This document shows positions 54,802 through 63,640 of a DNA stretch of 64,000 bases, piece by piece. The notes under the pieces were generated by a model. The model was not told where the DNA came from. It searched no databases and was given only the letters and a program-made list of their open reading frames with translations. Position 1 is the first letter of the stretch. Each line of letters starts with the position of its first letter. This DNA comes from Escherichia coli phage AZ21. The stretch lies in the sequence record LC788708.1, one strand, 5' to 3'. The position numbers and the translations under genes are program-made.

Positions 54802-54829
54802 AAGGAGAGCTTCGGCTCTCCTTTTTTAT
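54802..54829 (+). terminator. rho-independent terminator
   Basis: AAGGAGAGC-TTCG-GCTCTCCTT then TTTTTT. Confidence 0.8.
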
Positions 54830-54841
54830 TGGGAAAAATAA

Positions 54842-55354
54842 ATGCAAATCATCACAGCCGAAGATTATAGATTATATGGTGGTTTAAAACGACCTGAATT
54901 AGAATCTGGTGTAGAAATGATGATTACTGCTGCCAATGCGCTGATTACGAGCCTTCTAGGCATGGATGATGCTGATGCGGTAGACCAGTTAATCAATACA
55001 AAACCTACACGTAGGAAATATTTTCTGAGCTCACCATCTGCTACCTCCGTAACTAAAGTGACGATTAACGATAATGAGATTGACCCAGAGCAGTATAAGC
55101 TATACTCTGATGGTATTATCCTTCTCAAATTTAATCCTCCAGAAGGTTATATGGATGTAGCATATACACAAGGTGGATTCAATCCAATACCTGAAGATCT
55201 CAAACTTGCAGCATGTATGTTAGTAGATCATTGGCACAAACAAGATTACCGCCAAGCTAAAACAATTGGTGGTGAAACAGTAACCTTCAATAGCACTAAG
55301 TCTGGTATCCCAGAGCATATTCGTACTATTATTGAAGTGTATAGGAGAGTATAA
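54842..55354 (+). CDS. head completion/connector protein
   Basis: Position after capsid gene. Confidence 0.5.
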   Translation: MQIITAEDYRLYGGLKRPELESGVEMMITAANALITSLLGMDDADAVDQLINTKPTRRKYFLSSPSATSVTKVTINDNEIDPEQYKLYSDGIILLKFNPPEGYMDVAYTQGGFNPIPEDLKLAACMLVDHWHKQDYRQAKTIGGETVTFNSTKSGIPEHIRTIIEVYRRV

Positions 55355-56121
55355 TGTCTCTTTCCGATCTAGCTAAACAAATTATTAAAGAGCAGCTAGA
55401 TACTGCAGGACGATCTGAAAATAATAAGAATACTGTTGTGTATTCTGTTGAGACAGGGTTAAAAGATCCTACCAGAGATGGTACTGTTGCTCAAGTATCT
55501 TTTAAGTTTTCAAAACCCGTATCACAAGATCTTCTTGATGTTAGAACAGCCTCTATACTAAAAGCAGTATCCTCTAGTTTAGATCTTTCGGGGGATTTAG
55601 GTGCTCTAGAGAACTTAATACAAGCAACCGCGGGTAAAAAATCCTCTGTAGGTAAAAAACGTTCTACAGGCAGAGTACAGGTAAACTTTGGGGATCCTAG
55701 AGACGTAGAGGATGGATACTCAGGTGCAATAACAGGTGCTTCCGGACGTTTTGTATCAAATAGCAATATGAAGGTTATATTAGAGATAGTTGCTAAAGAG
55801 TACTTAATAAAGGATATGAAAAAGACAGGAGCGCCATTAAAATTTAGAACTGGCAGGTTTGCAAATTCTCTGAAAATTAAGGATGTTATGCTTAGAGATG
55901 CAGAGACTAGTAAAGGTGCTCCTGAATTAAACGTGACGTATAATTATATGGTACGTCCATATTCTGTATTTAATCCAGCAGTATCTACATATCGAAGATT
56001 ATCTCTACGACCTTACCCAGGCGCTAGAAACCCCCAAAAACTTATTGGTGAGGCTATAGCAAAAGCTGCAAGAGACCTGATTCACTCTAGATATAAAATC
56101 AAGGTTAATCAAGGAACCTAA
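55354..56121 (+). CDS. head-tail connector/tail completion protein
   Basis: Position. Confidence 0.45.
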   Translation: MSLSDLAKQIIKEQLDTAGRSENNKNTVVYSVETGLKDPTRDGTVAQVSFKFSKPVSQDLLDVRTASILKAVSSSLDLSGDLGALENLIQATAGKKSSVGKKRSTGRVQVNFGDPRDVEDGYSGAITGASGRFVSNSNMKVILEIVAKEYLIKDMKKTGAPLKFRTGRFANSLKIKDVMLRDAETSKGAPELNVTYNYMVRPYSVFNPAVSTYRRLSLRPYPGARNPQKLIGEAIAKAARDLIHSRYKIKVNQGT

Positions 56122-56124
56122 TAA

Positions 56125-62800: not shown

Positions 62801-63530
62801 CTCTATGATTCAATATAGTACTAGTCAACAGGTTAGTGCAATTGATCAGGCTATCGCAGCAGAGCAGAAACGTGATGGTAAATCAGAAGCATCTAAAGCT
62901 AAGTTGAAGAAGTTGGAAGCTGAAAAGCTGAAGATTCAACAAGACGCAGCTAAGAAGCAGATTATCATCCAAACTGCGGTAGCAGTAATGCAAGCGGCAA
63001 CAGCTGTACCGTACCCGTTCTCTATTCCTTTGATGGTGGCGGCAGGTTTGGCAGGTGCCTTAGCTCTTGCTCAAGCATCTTCTGCATCTGGCATGTCTTC
63101 TATTGCAGATTCTGGGGCGGATACAACTAGTTATTTAACCTTAGGAGAACGTCAGAAGAATATAGATGTGTCCATGTCTGCTAATGCTGGTGAATTATCT
63201 TATATTCGTGGCGATAAAGGCATAGGTGGTGCTAACTCTTTCGTTCCCCGTGCTGAGGGTGGTAATATGTACCCTGGGGTTAGCTATCAAATGGGTGAGC
63301 ATGGTACAGAAGTAGTTACCCCTATGGTTCCTATGAAAGCTACACCTAATGATGAGCTAAAAATCTCATCTAACTCAACTTCAGGAAGACCTATCATCTT
63401 GAATATTAGTGCTATGGATGCTGCAAGTTTTAGAGAGTTTGCTTCTAGTAATAGTAGTGCTCTAAGAGACGCAGTAGAATTAGCTCTGAATGAGAACGGT
63501 GCTAGTCTGAAAACATTAGGAAATTCTTAA
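59850..63530 (+). CDS. tape measure protein (pb2-like, 1226 aa)
   Basis: Very long Ala/Gln-rich coiled-coil protein after chaperones. Confidence 0.85.
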   Translation: MTDKLIRELLIDVKQKGATRTAKSIENVSDALENAAAASELTNEQLGKMPRTLYSIERAADRAAKSLTKMQASRGMAGITKSIDGIGDKLDYLAIQLIEVTDKLEIGFDGVSRSVKTMGNDVAAATEKVQDRLYDTNRALGGTARGFNDTAGAAGRASRAIGNTSGSARGATRDFAAMAKIGGSLPIMYAALASNIFVLQSAFEQLKLGDQLNRLEKFGVIVGTQTGTPVQTLARSLQEAAGYAISFEEAMRQASSASAYGFDAEQLNKFGLVARRAAAVLGVDMTDALNRVIKGVSKQEIELLDELGVTIRLNDAYADYVKQLNAANTGITYNVNSLTTFQKQQAYANAVIAESTKRFGYLDEVLRATPWEQFAANADAALRKIQQAAAKYLGPVIDAINTVFYTSQASISAEAARAQEKTNRQIDPTNVGAVALSLAASEEGYNKALDMYKESLDKRNKLKSEFDKRMEQADFYTKLAIRQVGEGIPIGIAAAGASEANKQFVAETAAMGLQVTRLGKEVEDSTENLNAWKSAYQAAGAAAANASPEFQKQINLQRDTTDPDAVYDFNSTVLKGLTEQQKAYNQTKKTASDLANDFQNIASSTDTAAKTSATFEEVIKNISSLSAGTGKSADDYVKSLNLGFNTLSEMKTASQALSEYVKLTGNETKNQLAVQQKIADVYNQTKDKEKAQEAGRRLELQQLEEQETALHRVLQTNQGNKAVEKEIEKIQLEKLKLTNQGMEAQKKVKDYTDKILGVDREIALLNNRTMTDTQYRLAQLNLELTVEKEKYEWYTKQADKQKEAEQSRRAQAQIEREIWKFRQDQIASMAAGREEEQQRQFTAKPLMGNAERLQEQLKLYEDLKQKTLGNAAAQAEYNKKIAETRAQLAGLRAQRNAEMQASVGSSLGAVYTPTTGLSGEDKDFADMGNRMASYDQAISKLSELNSEATAVAQSMGNLTNAMIQFSMGSLDTTSTIAVGMQAVSSMIQYSTSQQVSAIDQAIAAEQKRDGKSEASKAKLKKLEAEKLKIQQDAAKKQIIIQTAVAVMQAATAVPYPFSIPLMVAAGLAGALALAQASSASGMSSIADSGADTTSYLTLGERQKNIDVSMSANAGELSYIRGDKGIGGANSFVPRAEGGNMYPGVSYQMGEHGTEVVTPMVPMKATPNDELKISSNSTSGRPIILNISAMDAASFREFASSNSSALRDAVELALNENGASLKTLGNS

Positions 63531-63534
63531 AACT

Positions 63535-63565
63535 GGAGGAGGACTTTGAGTCCTCCTTTTCTTTA
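63535..63565 (+). terminator. rho-independent terminator
   Basis: GGAGGAGGAC-TTTGAGT-CCTCC then TTTTCTTT. Confidence 0.75.
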
Positions 63566-63640
63566 TGGAAAAATAAAAATTTCTTGATAAAATTTTCTAA
63601 TACTATTATAATATTGTTATTAAAGAGGAGAAATTAACTA

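What the first reader, a model, noticed from the sequence alone, without database searches (positions are those of the whole stretch)
54820..63580. Conserved TTATTGGGAAAAATAAA box immediately after late-region terminators
Three late terminators are each followed by the same sequence abutting the next start codon: 54826-54842, 59831-59849 and a variant at 63561-63578 (TTATGGAAAAATAAAAA). It lacks a canonical SD. This suggests a late-gene-specific initiation or regulatory element (late promoter core, or translation enhancer) for the capsid-connector, tape-measure and distal-tail operons.
Basis: seen in the sequence. Interest (0 to 1): 0.5.

Follow-up and report, generated by a model that had tools for sequence, protein, structure and literature searches.

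The report
Terminator tail fused to weak ribosome site
The repeated "box" in this T5-like phage is most likely the U-rich tail of a transcription terminator running straight into a weak ribosome-binding site for the next, low-copy structural gene; this is an ordinary, largely already annotated arrangement, not a special late-gene signal.

Summary
The window is a T5-like coliphage (Tequintavirus, 100% identical to phage AZ23 over the region). An exact 23-nt repeat, CCTTTTTTATTGGGAAAAATAAA, sits at 54820-54842 and 59825-59847. Each copy directly follows a strong intrinsic-terminator hairpin and abuts an ATG: head-completion gene at 54842, tape-measure gene at 59850.

Comparison across about 60 Demerecviridae loci shows a constant layout: hairpin, T-tract, G-rich motif, 3-11 nt spacer, ATG. 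In distant genera the GGG position holds a canonical Shine-Dalgarno (GGAG, GAGG, GGAGG, AGGTGA). I therefore read the box as terminator U-tract plus weak SD (GGGA, -4.2 kcal/mol) plus A-rich spacer. These genes would then be translated only from read-through transcripts.

The third "copy" (63557-63579) is different. It lies 61 nt before its ATG and forms the A-rich upstream part of the known sigma-70 late promoter P-G25.

- No promoter-like hexamers occur at sites 1 and 2.
- T5 itself carries a homing-endonuclease insertion that splits the box at site 2.
- Tests for SD-sequestering RNA helices were negative.

Still unexplained: both intergenic modules are more conserved than the flanking genes, and a conserved 30-nt non-coding element lies upstream of the second terminator. 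Low interest; already-known kind.

The parts
54802..54823 (+). T1 intrinsic-terminator hairpin after the major capsid gene (stop TAA 54780-54782). Core stem GGAGAGC (54804-54810) / GCTCTCC (54815-54821) with a UUCG tetraloop (54811-54814).
   Evidence: Terminator scan. RNA fold, z-score -3.6. 98.6% of cells paired across 8 genera or variants, with 2 compensatory pairs at the stem base. Annotated as a rho-independent terminator in T5 NC_005859.
54822..54830 (+). T1 U-tract TTTTTTATT; this is the 5' half of the 'box'.
   Evidence: A T-tract at this position is present in all distinct junctions examined family-wide.
54831..54841 (+). Weak Shine-Dalgarno GGGA (54831-54834) plus 7-nt A-rich spacer AAAATAA (54835-54841) for the head-completion / head-tail adaptor gene (ATG 54842, ORF 54842-55354). 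This is the 3' half of the box.
   Evidence: SD:anti-SD dG -4.2 kcal/mol, against -6 to -13 for most late genes. Canonical SDs sit at the same position in My1, phi3, L070, L072, L085, L089-L091 and Aeromonas. The Shiner annotators mark GGGT here as the RBS. Gene identity: phrog_442.
59802..59826 (+). T2 intrinsic-terminator hairpin GGCTCTGGGTG-ATT-TGCCCAGAGCC, after the 122-aa tail-assembly-chaperone ORF (stop 59764-59766).
   Evidence: dG -19.1. RNAalifold consensus on 15 diverse sequences: 11 pairs, 8 with compensatory changes. Annotated as a terminator in T5.
59827..59835 (+). T2 U-tract TTTTTTATT.
   Evidence: It is retained in T5 even though a homing endonuclease is inserted immediately after it.
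59836..59849 (+). Weak SD GGGA (59836-59839) plus 10-nt A-rich spacer for the tape-measure gene (pb2 homologue; ATG 59850, ORF 59850-63530).
   Evidence: Family-wide variants GG, GAGG, AGGTGA, GGAGG and GGAG at the same place. In Epseptimavirus-type loci the ATG follows GGGAAAAATAA directly, as at site 1. Gene identity: phrog_3779.
63535..63566 (+). T3 terminator after the tape-measure gene (stop 63528-63530): hairpin 63535-63559 plus interrupted T-tract up to 63566.
   Evidence: Annotated as a terminator in T5.
63567..63583 (+). Box variant GGAAAAATAAAAATTTC: the A/T-rich block directly upstream of the -35 hexamer of late promoter P-G25, at the UP-element / '-43' position. It is not an RBS.
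   Evidence: It lies inside the 75-nt feature 'promoter P-G 25' of NC_005859. AGAAAAATAAAAATTTTAG-TTGCTA-17-TATAAT occurs at an early-region promoter of AZ23. Early promoters share AAAAATTTnCTTGCT.
63584..63612 (+). Sigma-70 late promoter (P-G25 homologue), TTGATA-17-TATAAT. It is followed by strong SD GAGGAG (63625-63630) and the ATG of the distal tail protein gene (63640).
   Evidence: 11 of 12 consensus matches. T5 annotation. Late kinetics of P-G25 by primer extension (PMC7472727).
56426..56454 (+). P-J5-homologous sigma-70 promoter TTGACA-17-TATACT, inside the tail-terminator gene and upstream of the tail-tube gene. It is the only strong (11 of 12) promoter-like site between T1 and T2.
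   Evidence: 'Promoter P-J 5' lies inside T5.146 in NC_005859.

Best explanation
At sites 1 and 2 the 'box' is two adjacent, ordinary signals read as one motif.

(i) TTTTTTATT is the U-tract of a Rho-independent terminator. T1 lies after the major capsid gene. T2 lies after the tail-tube/chaperone block.

(ii) GGGAAAAATAA(AAC) is the translation-initiation region of the next gene: a weak Shine-Dalgarno (GGGA) and an unstructured A-rich spacer, ending at the ATG.

No strong promoter-like site lies between T1 and 56426 (P-J5), and none lies between T2 and the tape-measure ATG. The head-completion/neck genes and the tape-measure gene must therefore be expressed from transcripts that read through the terminator. 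They are then translated from a deliberately weak RBS. Together these two steps would drop output from high-copy proteins (capsid, tail tube) to low-copy proteins (head completion, tape measure).

The U-tract just 5' of the SD may also act as an S1-binding, unstructured landing site. The third site is a different object: the A-rich upstream block of the known late sigma-70 promoter P-G25.

Shown: the sequence anatomy, hairpin covariation, SD-position equivalence across the family, and the absence of promoter hexamers. Inferred: partial read-through, the dosage logic and any S1 role.
For: - Identity of the phage and genes.
- Hairpin plus T-tract at all three sites, with compensatory substitutions.
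- 27 distinct junction tails from about 10 genera all read T-tract, G-rich motif, 3-11 nt spacer, ATG. The GGG is replaced by GGAG, GAGG, GGAGG or AGGTGA in My1, phi3, Proteus phage 1, L070, L072, L085 and L089-L093.
- GGGA pairs with the anti-SD at -4.2 kcal/mol at a correct spacing, weaker than most late genes.
- The RBS segment is predicted unstructured (sequences 4-5).
- Independent annotators of Klebsiella phage Shiner mark exactly these bases as terminator and RBS.
- T5 itself has an HNH endonuclease gene inserted exactly between TTTTTTATT and the SD at site 2. The U-tract stays with the terminator, and pb2 keeps an AGGAAAACATTAG-ATG start. The two halves are therefore separable.
- No promoter-like site at either box. 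The only strong (11 of 12) promoter-like sites in the tail region, 56426 and 63584, match the annotated P-J5 and P-G25.
- T5 late genes use sigma-70 promoters (PMC7472727).
- Analogous leaky terminator right after a major capsid gene: T7 Tphi (PMC6068830).
Against: - The two boxes are identical over 23 nt within the genome.
- The 46-nt hairpin-plus-box of site 1 is 100% identical in Providencia phage PSTCR5, whose flanking coding DNA is only 55-64% identical.
- IG1 and IG2 are more conserved than most neighbouring genes (68-83% against 52-78%; the exception is My1, where the last 150 nt of the capsid gene are 78% identical against 76% for IG1). IG3 is not. This is tighter than a generic terminator plus RBS needs and could hide an extra constraint.
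- GGAAAAATAAA also follows T3, where it is not an RBS.
- Termination efficiency, read-through and ribosome binding were not measured.
Confidence: 0.8

Rival explanations
1. The box is an operator for a phage-encoded trans-acting factor superimposed on the RBS or terminator. Candidates are a translational repressor of the RegA type or an antitermination/read-through factor. Such a factor would co-regulate the dosage of head-completion and tape-measure proteins.
For: - Exact 23-nt identity of the two sites.
- 46-nt identity with a different genus.
- Intergenic modules more conserved than most flanking genes.
- An additional conserved non-coding element at 59770-59799, upstream of T2, with no explanation.
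Against: - Natural variants are tolerated: GGG to AGG or GG, A-run length changes, T-run of 13.
- T5 lacks the intact box at site 2.
- In Proteus phage, phi3, Ceto and L093 the two sites differ from each other and carry plain SDs.
- No candidate factor is known.
- The exact 20-mer is not a recurrent signal elsewhere: 64 scattered hits in 596 Gb, mostly in unrelated contexts.
Confidence: 0.1
2. The 3' half of the box (GGGAAAAATAAA) is a terminator-distal element. Under this reading, the DNA just downstream of the release site is conserved because it tunes termination efficiency at T1, T2 and T3.
For: GGAAAAATAAA follows all three late terminators, including T3 where it is not an RBS. From established knowledge (my recollection of Telesnitsky and Chamberlin 1989, and Reynolds and Chamberlin 1992), sequences downstream of the U-tract can change terminator efficiency.
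Against: - More than 15 other hairpin-plus-T-tract terminators in the same genome lack it.
- T5's T2 has unrelated sequence after TTTTTTATT.
- At T3 the motif is absent outside Tequinta/Epseptimavirus, while an A-rich block before the -35 remains.
- In distant genera the position is taken by differing SDs.
Confidence: 0.07
3. The box takes part in an RNA structural switch. Either the SD is sequestered by pairing with conserved segments 5' of the hairpin (UUUC-AG-CCGAUA at site 1; GUUCCACGAUGAG or UUUCCUCCAAU at site 2), or the U-tract pairs with the A-rich spacer so that the SD is presented in a loop (UUUAUU-GGGAAA-AAUAAA).
For: MFE and centroid folds of the read-through RNA draw these helices. 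The upstream segments are conserved. Mirrored interruptions such as UUUUAUU...AAUAAAA occur in some genera.
Against: - Cognate versus non-cognate duplex energies show no co-variation (mean -8.2 against -8.8 kcal/mol, permutation p = 0.81).
- The U-tract/spacer palindrome is no better than permuted partners (p = 0.13) or shuffled spacers (p = 0.73), and folds at only 0 to -2.3 kcal/mol in most lineages.
- RNAalifold returns only the terminator helix.
Confidence: 0.05
4. The box is a late-gene-specific promoter core or transcription-initiation element.
For: It is located at the head of three late gene blocks. The third copy lies inside the annotated P-G25 promoter feature.
Against: - No -35/-10-like hexamers at sites 1 and 2.
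- The ATG abuts the box (site 1) or lies 2 nt after it (site 2), so any transcript starting there would be essentially leaderless.
- Late T5 promoters are canonical sigma-70 promoters.
- Only 2 of 18 late-region ORF starts listed carry the box.
- Relatives replace it with SD sequences.
- At site 3 the box is upstream of the -35, not the core.
Confidence: 0.03

Closest known systems
Leaky Rho-independent terminators inside phage or bacterial operons that step down expression of distal genes. Examples: T7 Tphi immediately after major-capsid gene 10A, and the internal terminator plus poor RBS before dnaG in the E. coli rpsU-dnaG-rpoD operon.
   Same: GC-rich hairpin plus U-tract directly after a very highly expressed structural gene. 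There is no promoter before the next gene, which encodes low-copy proteins. T7 Tphi lies right after gene 10A and terminates incompletely (PMC6068830). The pairing of a terminator with a weak RBS mirrors dnaG (established knowledge).
   Different: Here host RNA polymerase is used, not a phage RNA polymerase. The U-tract and SD are directly fused, with no nucleotides between them. The same 23-nt tail is used twice. Read-through has not been measured.
Shine-Dalgarno ribosome-binding sites with A/U-rich spacers and U-rich S1-binding leaders
   Same: A purine-rich motif complementary to the 16S 3' end lies 3-11 nt before a conserved ATG. The spacer is A-rich and unstructured, and U-rich sequence lies immediately 5'.
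   Different: The SD is degenerate in Tequintavirus (GGGA, 4 bp including one G-U). The U-rich 'leader' is at the same time a terminator tail.
T5 sigma-70 promoters with an A-rich '-43' / UP-element-like block (late promoter P-G25; early promoters of the P-N25 type)
   Same: The third site lies at about -40 to -52 of TTGATA-17-TATAAT. It lies inside the annotated P-G25 feature and resembles the AAAAATTTnCTTGCT block of the early promoters.
   Different: This applies only to the third site. Contact with the RNA polymerase alpha C-terminal domain was not tested. The GG of the variant has no known role there.
Translational operators of phage RNA-binding repressors (T4 RegA type)
   Same: A short A/U-rich sequence overlapping the RBS and ATG is shared by more than one gene.
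   Different: No repressor is known in T5-like phages. The sequence is not conserved as a unit in distant genera, and T5 lacks it at pb2. This is a resemblance only.

Membership tests
Rho-independent (intrinsic) terminator (sites 1-3, 5' half of box) | GC-rich stem-loop immediately followed by a U-rich tract on the transcribed strand | tested here: met
   stems of 9-11 pairs, dG -12 to -19 kcal/mol, followed by TTTTTTATT or TTTTCTTTAT.
Rho-independent (intrinsic) terminator (sites 1-3, 5' half of box) | Stem maintained by compensatory substitutions in relatives | tested here: met
   T2: 8 of 11 pairs have double changes. T1: 98.6% of cells paired, with 2 compensatory pairs; distant genera have unrelated stems at the same place.
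Rho-independent (intrinsic) terminator (sites 1-3, 5' half of box) | RNA 3' ends form at the U-tract; partial read-through | not testable with these tools
   No T5 Term-seq or RNA-seq data were found in the paper library.
Shine-Dalgarno ribosome-binding site (sites 1-2, 3' half of box) | Complementarity to the 16S rRNA 3' end, located about 5-10 nt upstream of the start codon | tested here: met
   GGGA gives dG -4.2 kcal/mol. The spacer between GGGA and the ATG is 7 nt (site 1) and 10 nt (site 2). The SD is weak but within the range of other genes here.
Shine-Dalgarno ribosome-binding site (sites 1-2, 3' half of box) | Positional equivalence to canonical SDs in homologous junctions of relatives; conserved start codon | tested here: met
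   GGAG, GAGG, GGAGG or AGGTGA occupy the same position in other genera. N-termini MxIIT... and MTDK... are conserved.
Shine-Dalgarno ribosome-binding site (sites 1-2, 3' half of box) | 30S binding / dependence of translation on the motif | not testable with these tools
   Needs toeprinting or reporter mutagenesis.
   No promoter-like match overlaps 54800-54842 or 59800-59850. The box abuts the ATG (site 1) or lies 2 nt from it (site 2).
UP-element-like / '-43' A-block of a sigma-70 promoter (site 3) | A/T-rich block at about -38 to -59, directly upstream of a functional -35/-10 pair | tested here: met
   GGAAAAATAAAAATTTC (63567-63583) directly precedes TTGATA-17-TATAAT. It lies inside the annotated P-G25 feature. 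P-G25 is active late in vivo (PMC7472727).
UP-element-like / '-43' A-block of a sigma-70 promoter (site 3) | Stimulation through RNA polymerase alpha-CTD contact | not testable with these tools
   Would need in vitro transcription with alpha-CTD-deleted RNA polymerase.
Cis-regulatory RNA family (Rfam) | Match to a curated covariance model | tested here: not met
   There are only two chance-level snoRNA hits (E about 0.9) in 54000-64000.
SD-sequestering RNA switch | Co-variation between the RBS and a complementary upstream segment | tested here: not met
   Cognate versus non-cognate test p = 0.81. Palindrome tests p = 0.13 and 0.73.

The most novel reading that the evidence does not exclude
The whole T1 and T2 modules may be recognition sites for an unidentified T5-family factor. 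Each module comprises a hairpin, the U-tract and GGGAAAAAUAAA; at T2 it also includes the conserved 30-nt element 59770-59799. Such a factor could be a late antiterminator/read-through factor or a translational repressor that sets the capsid:connector and tube:tape-measure ratios. This would explain why these intergenic regions are more conserved than most of the flanking genes across genera.
Probability: 0.08. Interest if true: 0.55.

Novelty: already known. Interest (0 to 1): 0.15.

Why it matters
As read here it matters little. It documents how T5-like phages step down expression from very abundant proteins (capsid, tail tube) to rare ones (head completion, tape measure), using a terminator fused to a weak ribosome site. 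This design is already familiar from T7 and from bacterial operons. The terminators and the P-G25 promoter are annotated in the T5 reference genome, and both the terminators and these ribosome-binding sites are annotated in Klebsiella phage Shiner.

It has practical value for phage engineering. Insertions at these junctions should keep the U-tract with the upstream gene and the GGGA-spacer-ATG with the downstream gene, as natural homing-endonuclease insertions do.

The only open point of some interest is the unusually tight sequence conservation of the two modules, together with the unexplained 30-nt element before the second terminator.

Tried and rejected
1. SD-sequestering clamp helix between the box and conserved segments 5' of each hairpin. 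It is suggested by MFE and centroid folds. I rejected it because cognate upstream/RBS pairs are no more complementary than non-cognate pairs across 11 lineages (p = 0.81), and RNAalifold finds only the terminator stem.

2. U-tract:A-spacer hairpin presenting the SD in its loop (UUUAUU-GGGAAA-AAUAAA). Energies are 0 to -2.3 kcal/mol in most lineages, and there is no excess complementarity over permuted or shuffled controls (p = 0.13 and 0.73).

3. A universal signal. The exact 20-mer was scanned in IMG/VR and in 596 Gb of GTDB genomes.
   - Outside T5-like phages there are only sporadic hits.
   - There are 64 bacterial hits, in diverse non-enteric lineages. About a third follow a hairpin and 11 lie next to an ATG.
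   - One unrelated siphophage contig has terminator, box and the ATG of a non-homologous tape-measure gene (L111). I treat this as chance or convergence.

4. Hidden coding. No meaningful alternative ORFs cross either intergenic region. Indels in the 59770-59799 element argue against coding.

5. Rfam: no family match.

6. Literature. No T5 transcriptome or Term-seq data were found. Zivanovic 2014 and Nakayama 1994 are not held. The Klimuk supplement text has no promoter sequences.

7. An alignment-based locus search with the head-completion protein failed because conservation was too low. It was replaced by a search with the capsid alignment.
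Full report
**Source and gene context.** The 10.6 kb around the finding are 100% identical to Escherichia coli phage AZ23 (LC788707.1; Demerecviridae, Tequintavirus) and 94-97% identical to many T5-like phages. By homology to the annotated T5 genome (NC_005859) and PHROG matches, the genes are:
- 53406-54782: major capsid protein (pb8 homologue)
- 54842-55354: head-completion / head-tail adaptor
- 58932-59336 and 59398-59766: tail-assembly chaperones
- 59850-63530: tape-measure protein (pb2 homologue)
- ATG 63640: distal tail protein

**Check of the observation.**
- TTATTGGGAAAAATAAA is exact at 54826-54842 and 59831-59847.
- All three sites follow terminator-like hairpins at 54802-54823, 59802-59826 and 63535-59.
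- GGAAAAATAAA occurs exactly only at these three places in the window plus the flanking AZ23 sequence I fetched.
- The third site differs. It shares only GGAAAAATAAA, lies 61 nt upstream of its ATG, and is followed by TTGATA-17-TATAAT and a strong SD.

**Comparative anatomy.** I collected the homologous junctions from several sources: 30 close IMG/VR loci; 65 loci found with a capsid-protein alignment reaching 31-98% identity; and annotated genomes of six other genera. These are Sugarlandvirus Shiner, Myunavirus My1, Novosibvirus Proteus phage 1, Priunavirus PSTCR5, and the Vibrio phages phi3 and Ceto.
- At both junctions the layout is constant: stop codon, hairpin, T-tract, a G-rich motif, a 3-11 nt spacer, ATG (27 distinct tails).
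- Where Tequintavirus has GGG, relatives have canonical Shine-Dalgarno sequences. Examples are TTTTTTATTGGAGGTAATAAA-ATG (phi3), TTTTTATTTGGAGTAAAT-ATG and TTTTTTATTTGAGGTAATAAA-ATG (My1), TTTTTTATAGGTGAAATTCAT-ATG (Proteus phage), and GTAAGGAGTTTTT-ATG (L085).
- The hairpins change by compensatory substitutions: T2 has 8 of 11 pairs with double changes, and T1 has 98.6% of cells paired with 2 compensatory pairs.
- The annotators of phage Shiner independently marked these bases as 'terminator' followed immediately by 'ribosome_binding_site'.

**What the box is.**
- The 5' half (TTTTTTATT) is the terminator U-tract.
- The 3' half is the downstream gene's translation-initiation region. GGGA can form 4 bp with the anti-SD (-4.2 kcal/mol), against -6 to -13 for most late genes. 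The remainder is an A-rich spacer that is predicted unstructured.
- T5 provides a natural dissection. An HNH endonuclease gene (T5.141) is inserted exactly between TTTTTTATT and the SD at site 2. The U-tract stays with the terminator, and pb2 starts from AGGAAAACATTAG-ATG.
- No strong promoter-like site lies between T1 and 56426 or between T2 and 59850. The 11/12 match at 56426-56454 corresponds to annotated promoter P-J5, and 63584-63612 to P-G25. Both give late transcripts in vivo, and T5 late genes use sigma-70 promoters (PMC7472727).
- I infer that the head-completion/neck genes and the tape-measure gene are expressed from read-through transcripts and a weak RBS. This would lower output from high-copy to low-copy virion proteins. 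The logic is the same as T7 Tphi, which sits right after capsid gene 10A and terminates incompletely (PMC6068830).

**The third site.** GGAAAAATAAAAATTTC (63567-63583) directly precedes the -35 of P-G25 and lies within the 75-nt promoter feature of the T5 record. Many terminator-promoter junctions in this genome have AAAATTTTAnTTGCT at that position. An early-region promoter of AZ23 has AGAAAAATAAAAATTTTAG-TTGCTA-17-TATAAT. In other genera the GG is lost, but an A-rich block before the -35 remains. I therefore read the third site as an UP-like / '-43' promoter block. It is neither an RBS nor late-specific.

**Rivals tested.**
- SD sequestration by conserved upstream segments was suggested by single-sequence folds. 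It shows no co-variation (p = 0.81).
- The U-tract/A-spacer palindrome is no better than controls (p = 0.13 and 0.73).
- Rfam gives nothing.
- The exact 20-mer is not a general signal. In IMG/VR it is confined to T5-like contigs apart from two or three sporadic cases. In 596 Gb of bacterial genomes it occurs 64 times, in mixed contexts and in non-enteric phyla.

**What remains odd.**
- IG1 and IG2 are 68-83% identical to four other genera. The adjacent 150-nt coding stretches are 52-78% identical, and only in My1 does one of them (capsid gene 3' end, 78%) reach the level of its intergenic region (IG1, 76%). IG3 is not elevated.
- The 46-nt hairpin-plus-box of site 1 is 100% identical in Providencia phage PSTCR5.
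- A 30-nt non-coding element (59770-59799, TTTCCTCCAATGGGCGTTCCACGATGAGGC) precedes T2 from coliphages to Vibrio phages. It has no predicted structure, copy or family.
- These points leave roughly 10% for an extra trans-acting factor, but there is nothing positive for one.

**Verdict.** The repeat is real and conserved, but its interpretation is ordinary: a terminator tail fused to a weak RBS (twice), plus the upstream A-block of a known late promoter (once). It is an already-known kind of feature and of low interest.

Noticed in passing
window 59770-59799: A conserved non-coding element, TTTCCTCCAATGGGCGTTCCACGATGAGGC, lies between the chaperone stop codon and the T2 hairpin. It is recognisable from Tequintavirus to the Vibrio phages phi3 and Ceto. 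It shows 1-nt indels and a variable frame, so it is not coding. It is single-copy in the window, has no Rfam hit and has no consensus helix. Its function is unknown.
   Followed up: partly
window 54783-54803: Just after the capsid stop codon there is a mini-hairpin (GGCU-UUUC-AGCC) that changes compensatorily in other genera (GGCU-AAU-AGCC, GGCA-AUA-UGCC). A GCCGA motif directly 5' of the T1 hairpin is conserved in six genera. GCCGA is complementary both to UCGGC in the T1 loop/3' arm and to AUUGG in the box. No test supported a switch.
   Followed up: partly
window 58932-59336 and 59398-59766: The 134-aa and 122-aa ORFs match the N- and C-terminal halves of a single 258-aa PHROG 'tail assembly chaperone' profile (phrog_313). 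This suggests a lambda G/GT-type pair joined by programmed frameshifting in this family.
   Followed up: no
L041 (T5 NC_005859) 7778-8588; L058/L010 and L046 near the capsid stop codon: Homing-endonuclease-type insertions target these junctions. In T5, T5.141 (HNH) sits exactly between the T2 U-tract and the pb2 RBS. NR01-type and another phage carry inserts between the capsid stop codon and T1.
   Followed up: partly
L111 9480-9560 (- strand), IMG/VR contig 3300032255_000005: An unrelated 42.6-kb siphophage contig has a different terminator-like hairpin followed by the same 26 nt, CTTTTTTATTGGGAAAAATAAATGAC. This abuts the ATG of a 639-aa tape-measure protein (phrog_9483) that is not homologous to pb2 by BLASTP. 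It is probably chance or convergence.
   Followed up: partly
window 3203-29171: There is a large family (14 or more copies) of near-identical early promoters: AAAAATTTACTTGCT-N17-TATAAT-ATATTCATAAATT. Many sit directly after terminators. They are the classic strong T5 early promoters, with the conserved ATATT discriminator noted in PMC7472727.
   Followed up: no
window 34267-35100: There is a cluster of direct repeats (TGTCGGATTTGCACA, seven or more copies, and GAATGAGAATGATAAT-type units) in a non-coding stretch where GC skew changes sign. It probably corresponds to the repeat-rich non-coding region described for T5 and BF23 (PMC10644984).
   Followed up: no
window 1928-53400 versus LC788707.1: The window-to-record offset is 32072 at the window start and 33912 at its end. 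The deposited AZ23 record therefore contains 1840 bp that the window lacks somewhere in between, possibly a mobile endonuclease gene or an assembly difference.
   Followed up: no
L001 (AZ23 record) about 20134-20175, - strand: An early-region terminator is followed directly by TTTGGGATATGTAA-ATG (GGGA, 7 nt, ATG). This is another terminator-to-weak-RBS junction, with a different spacer. It shows that the design is not confined to late genes.
   Followed up: no
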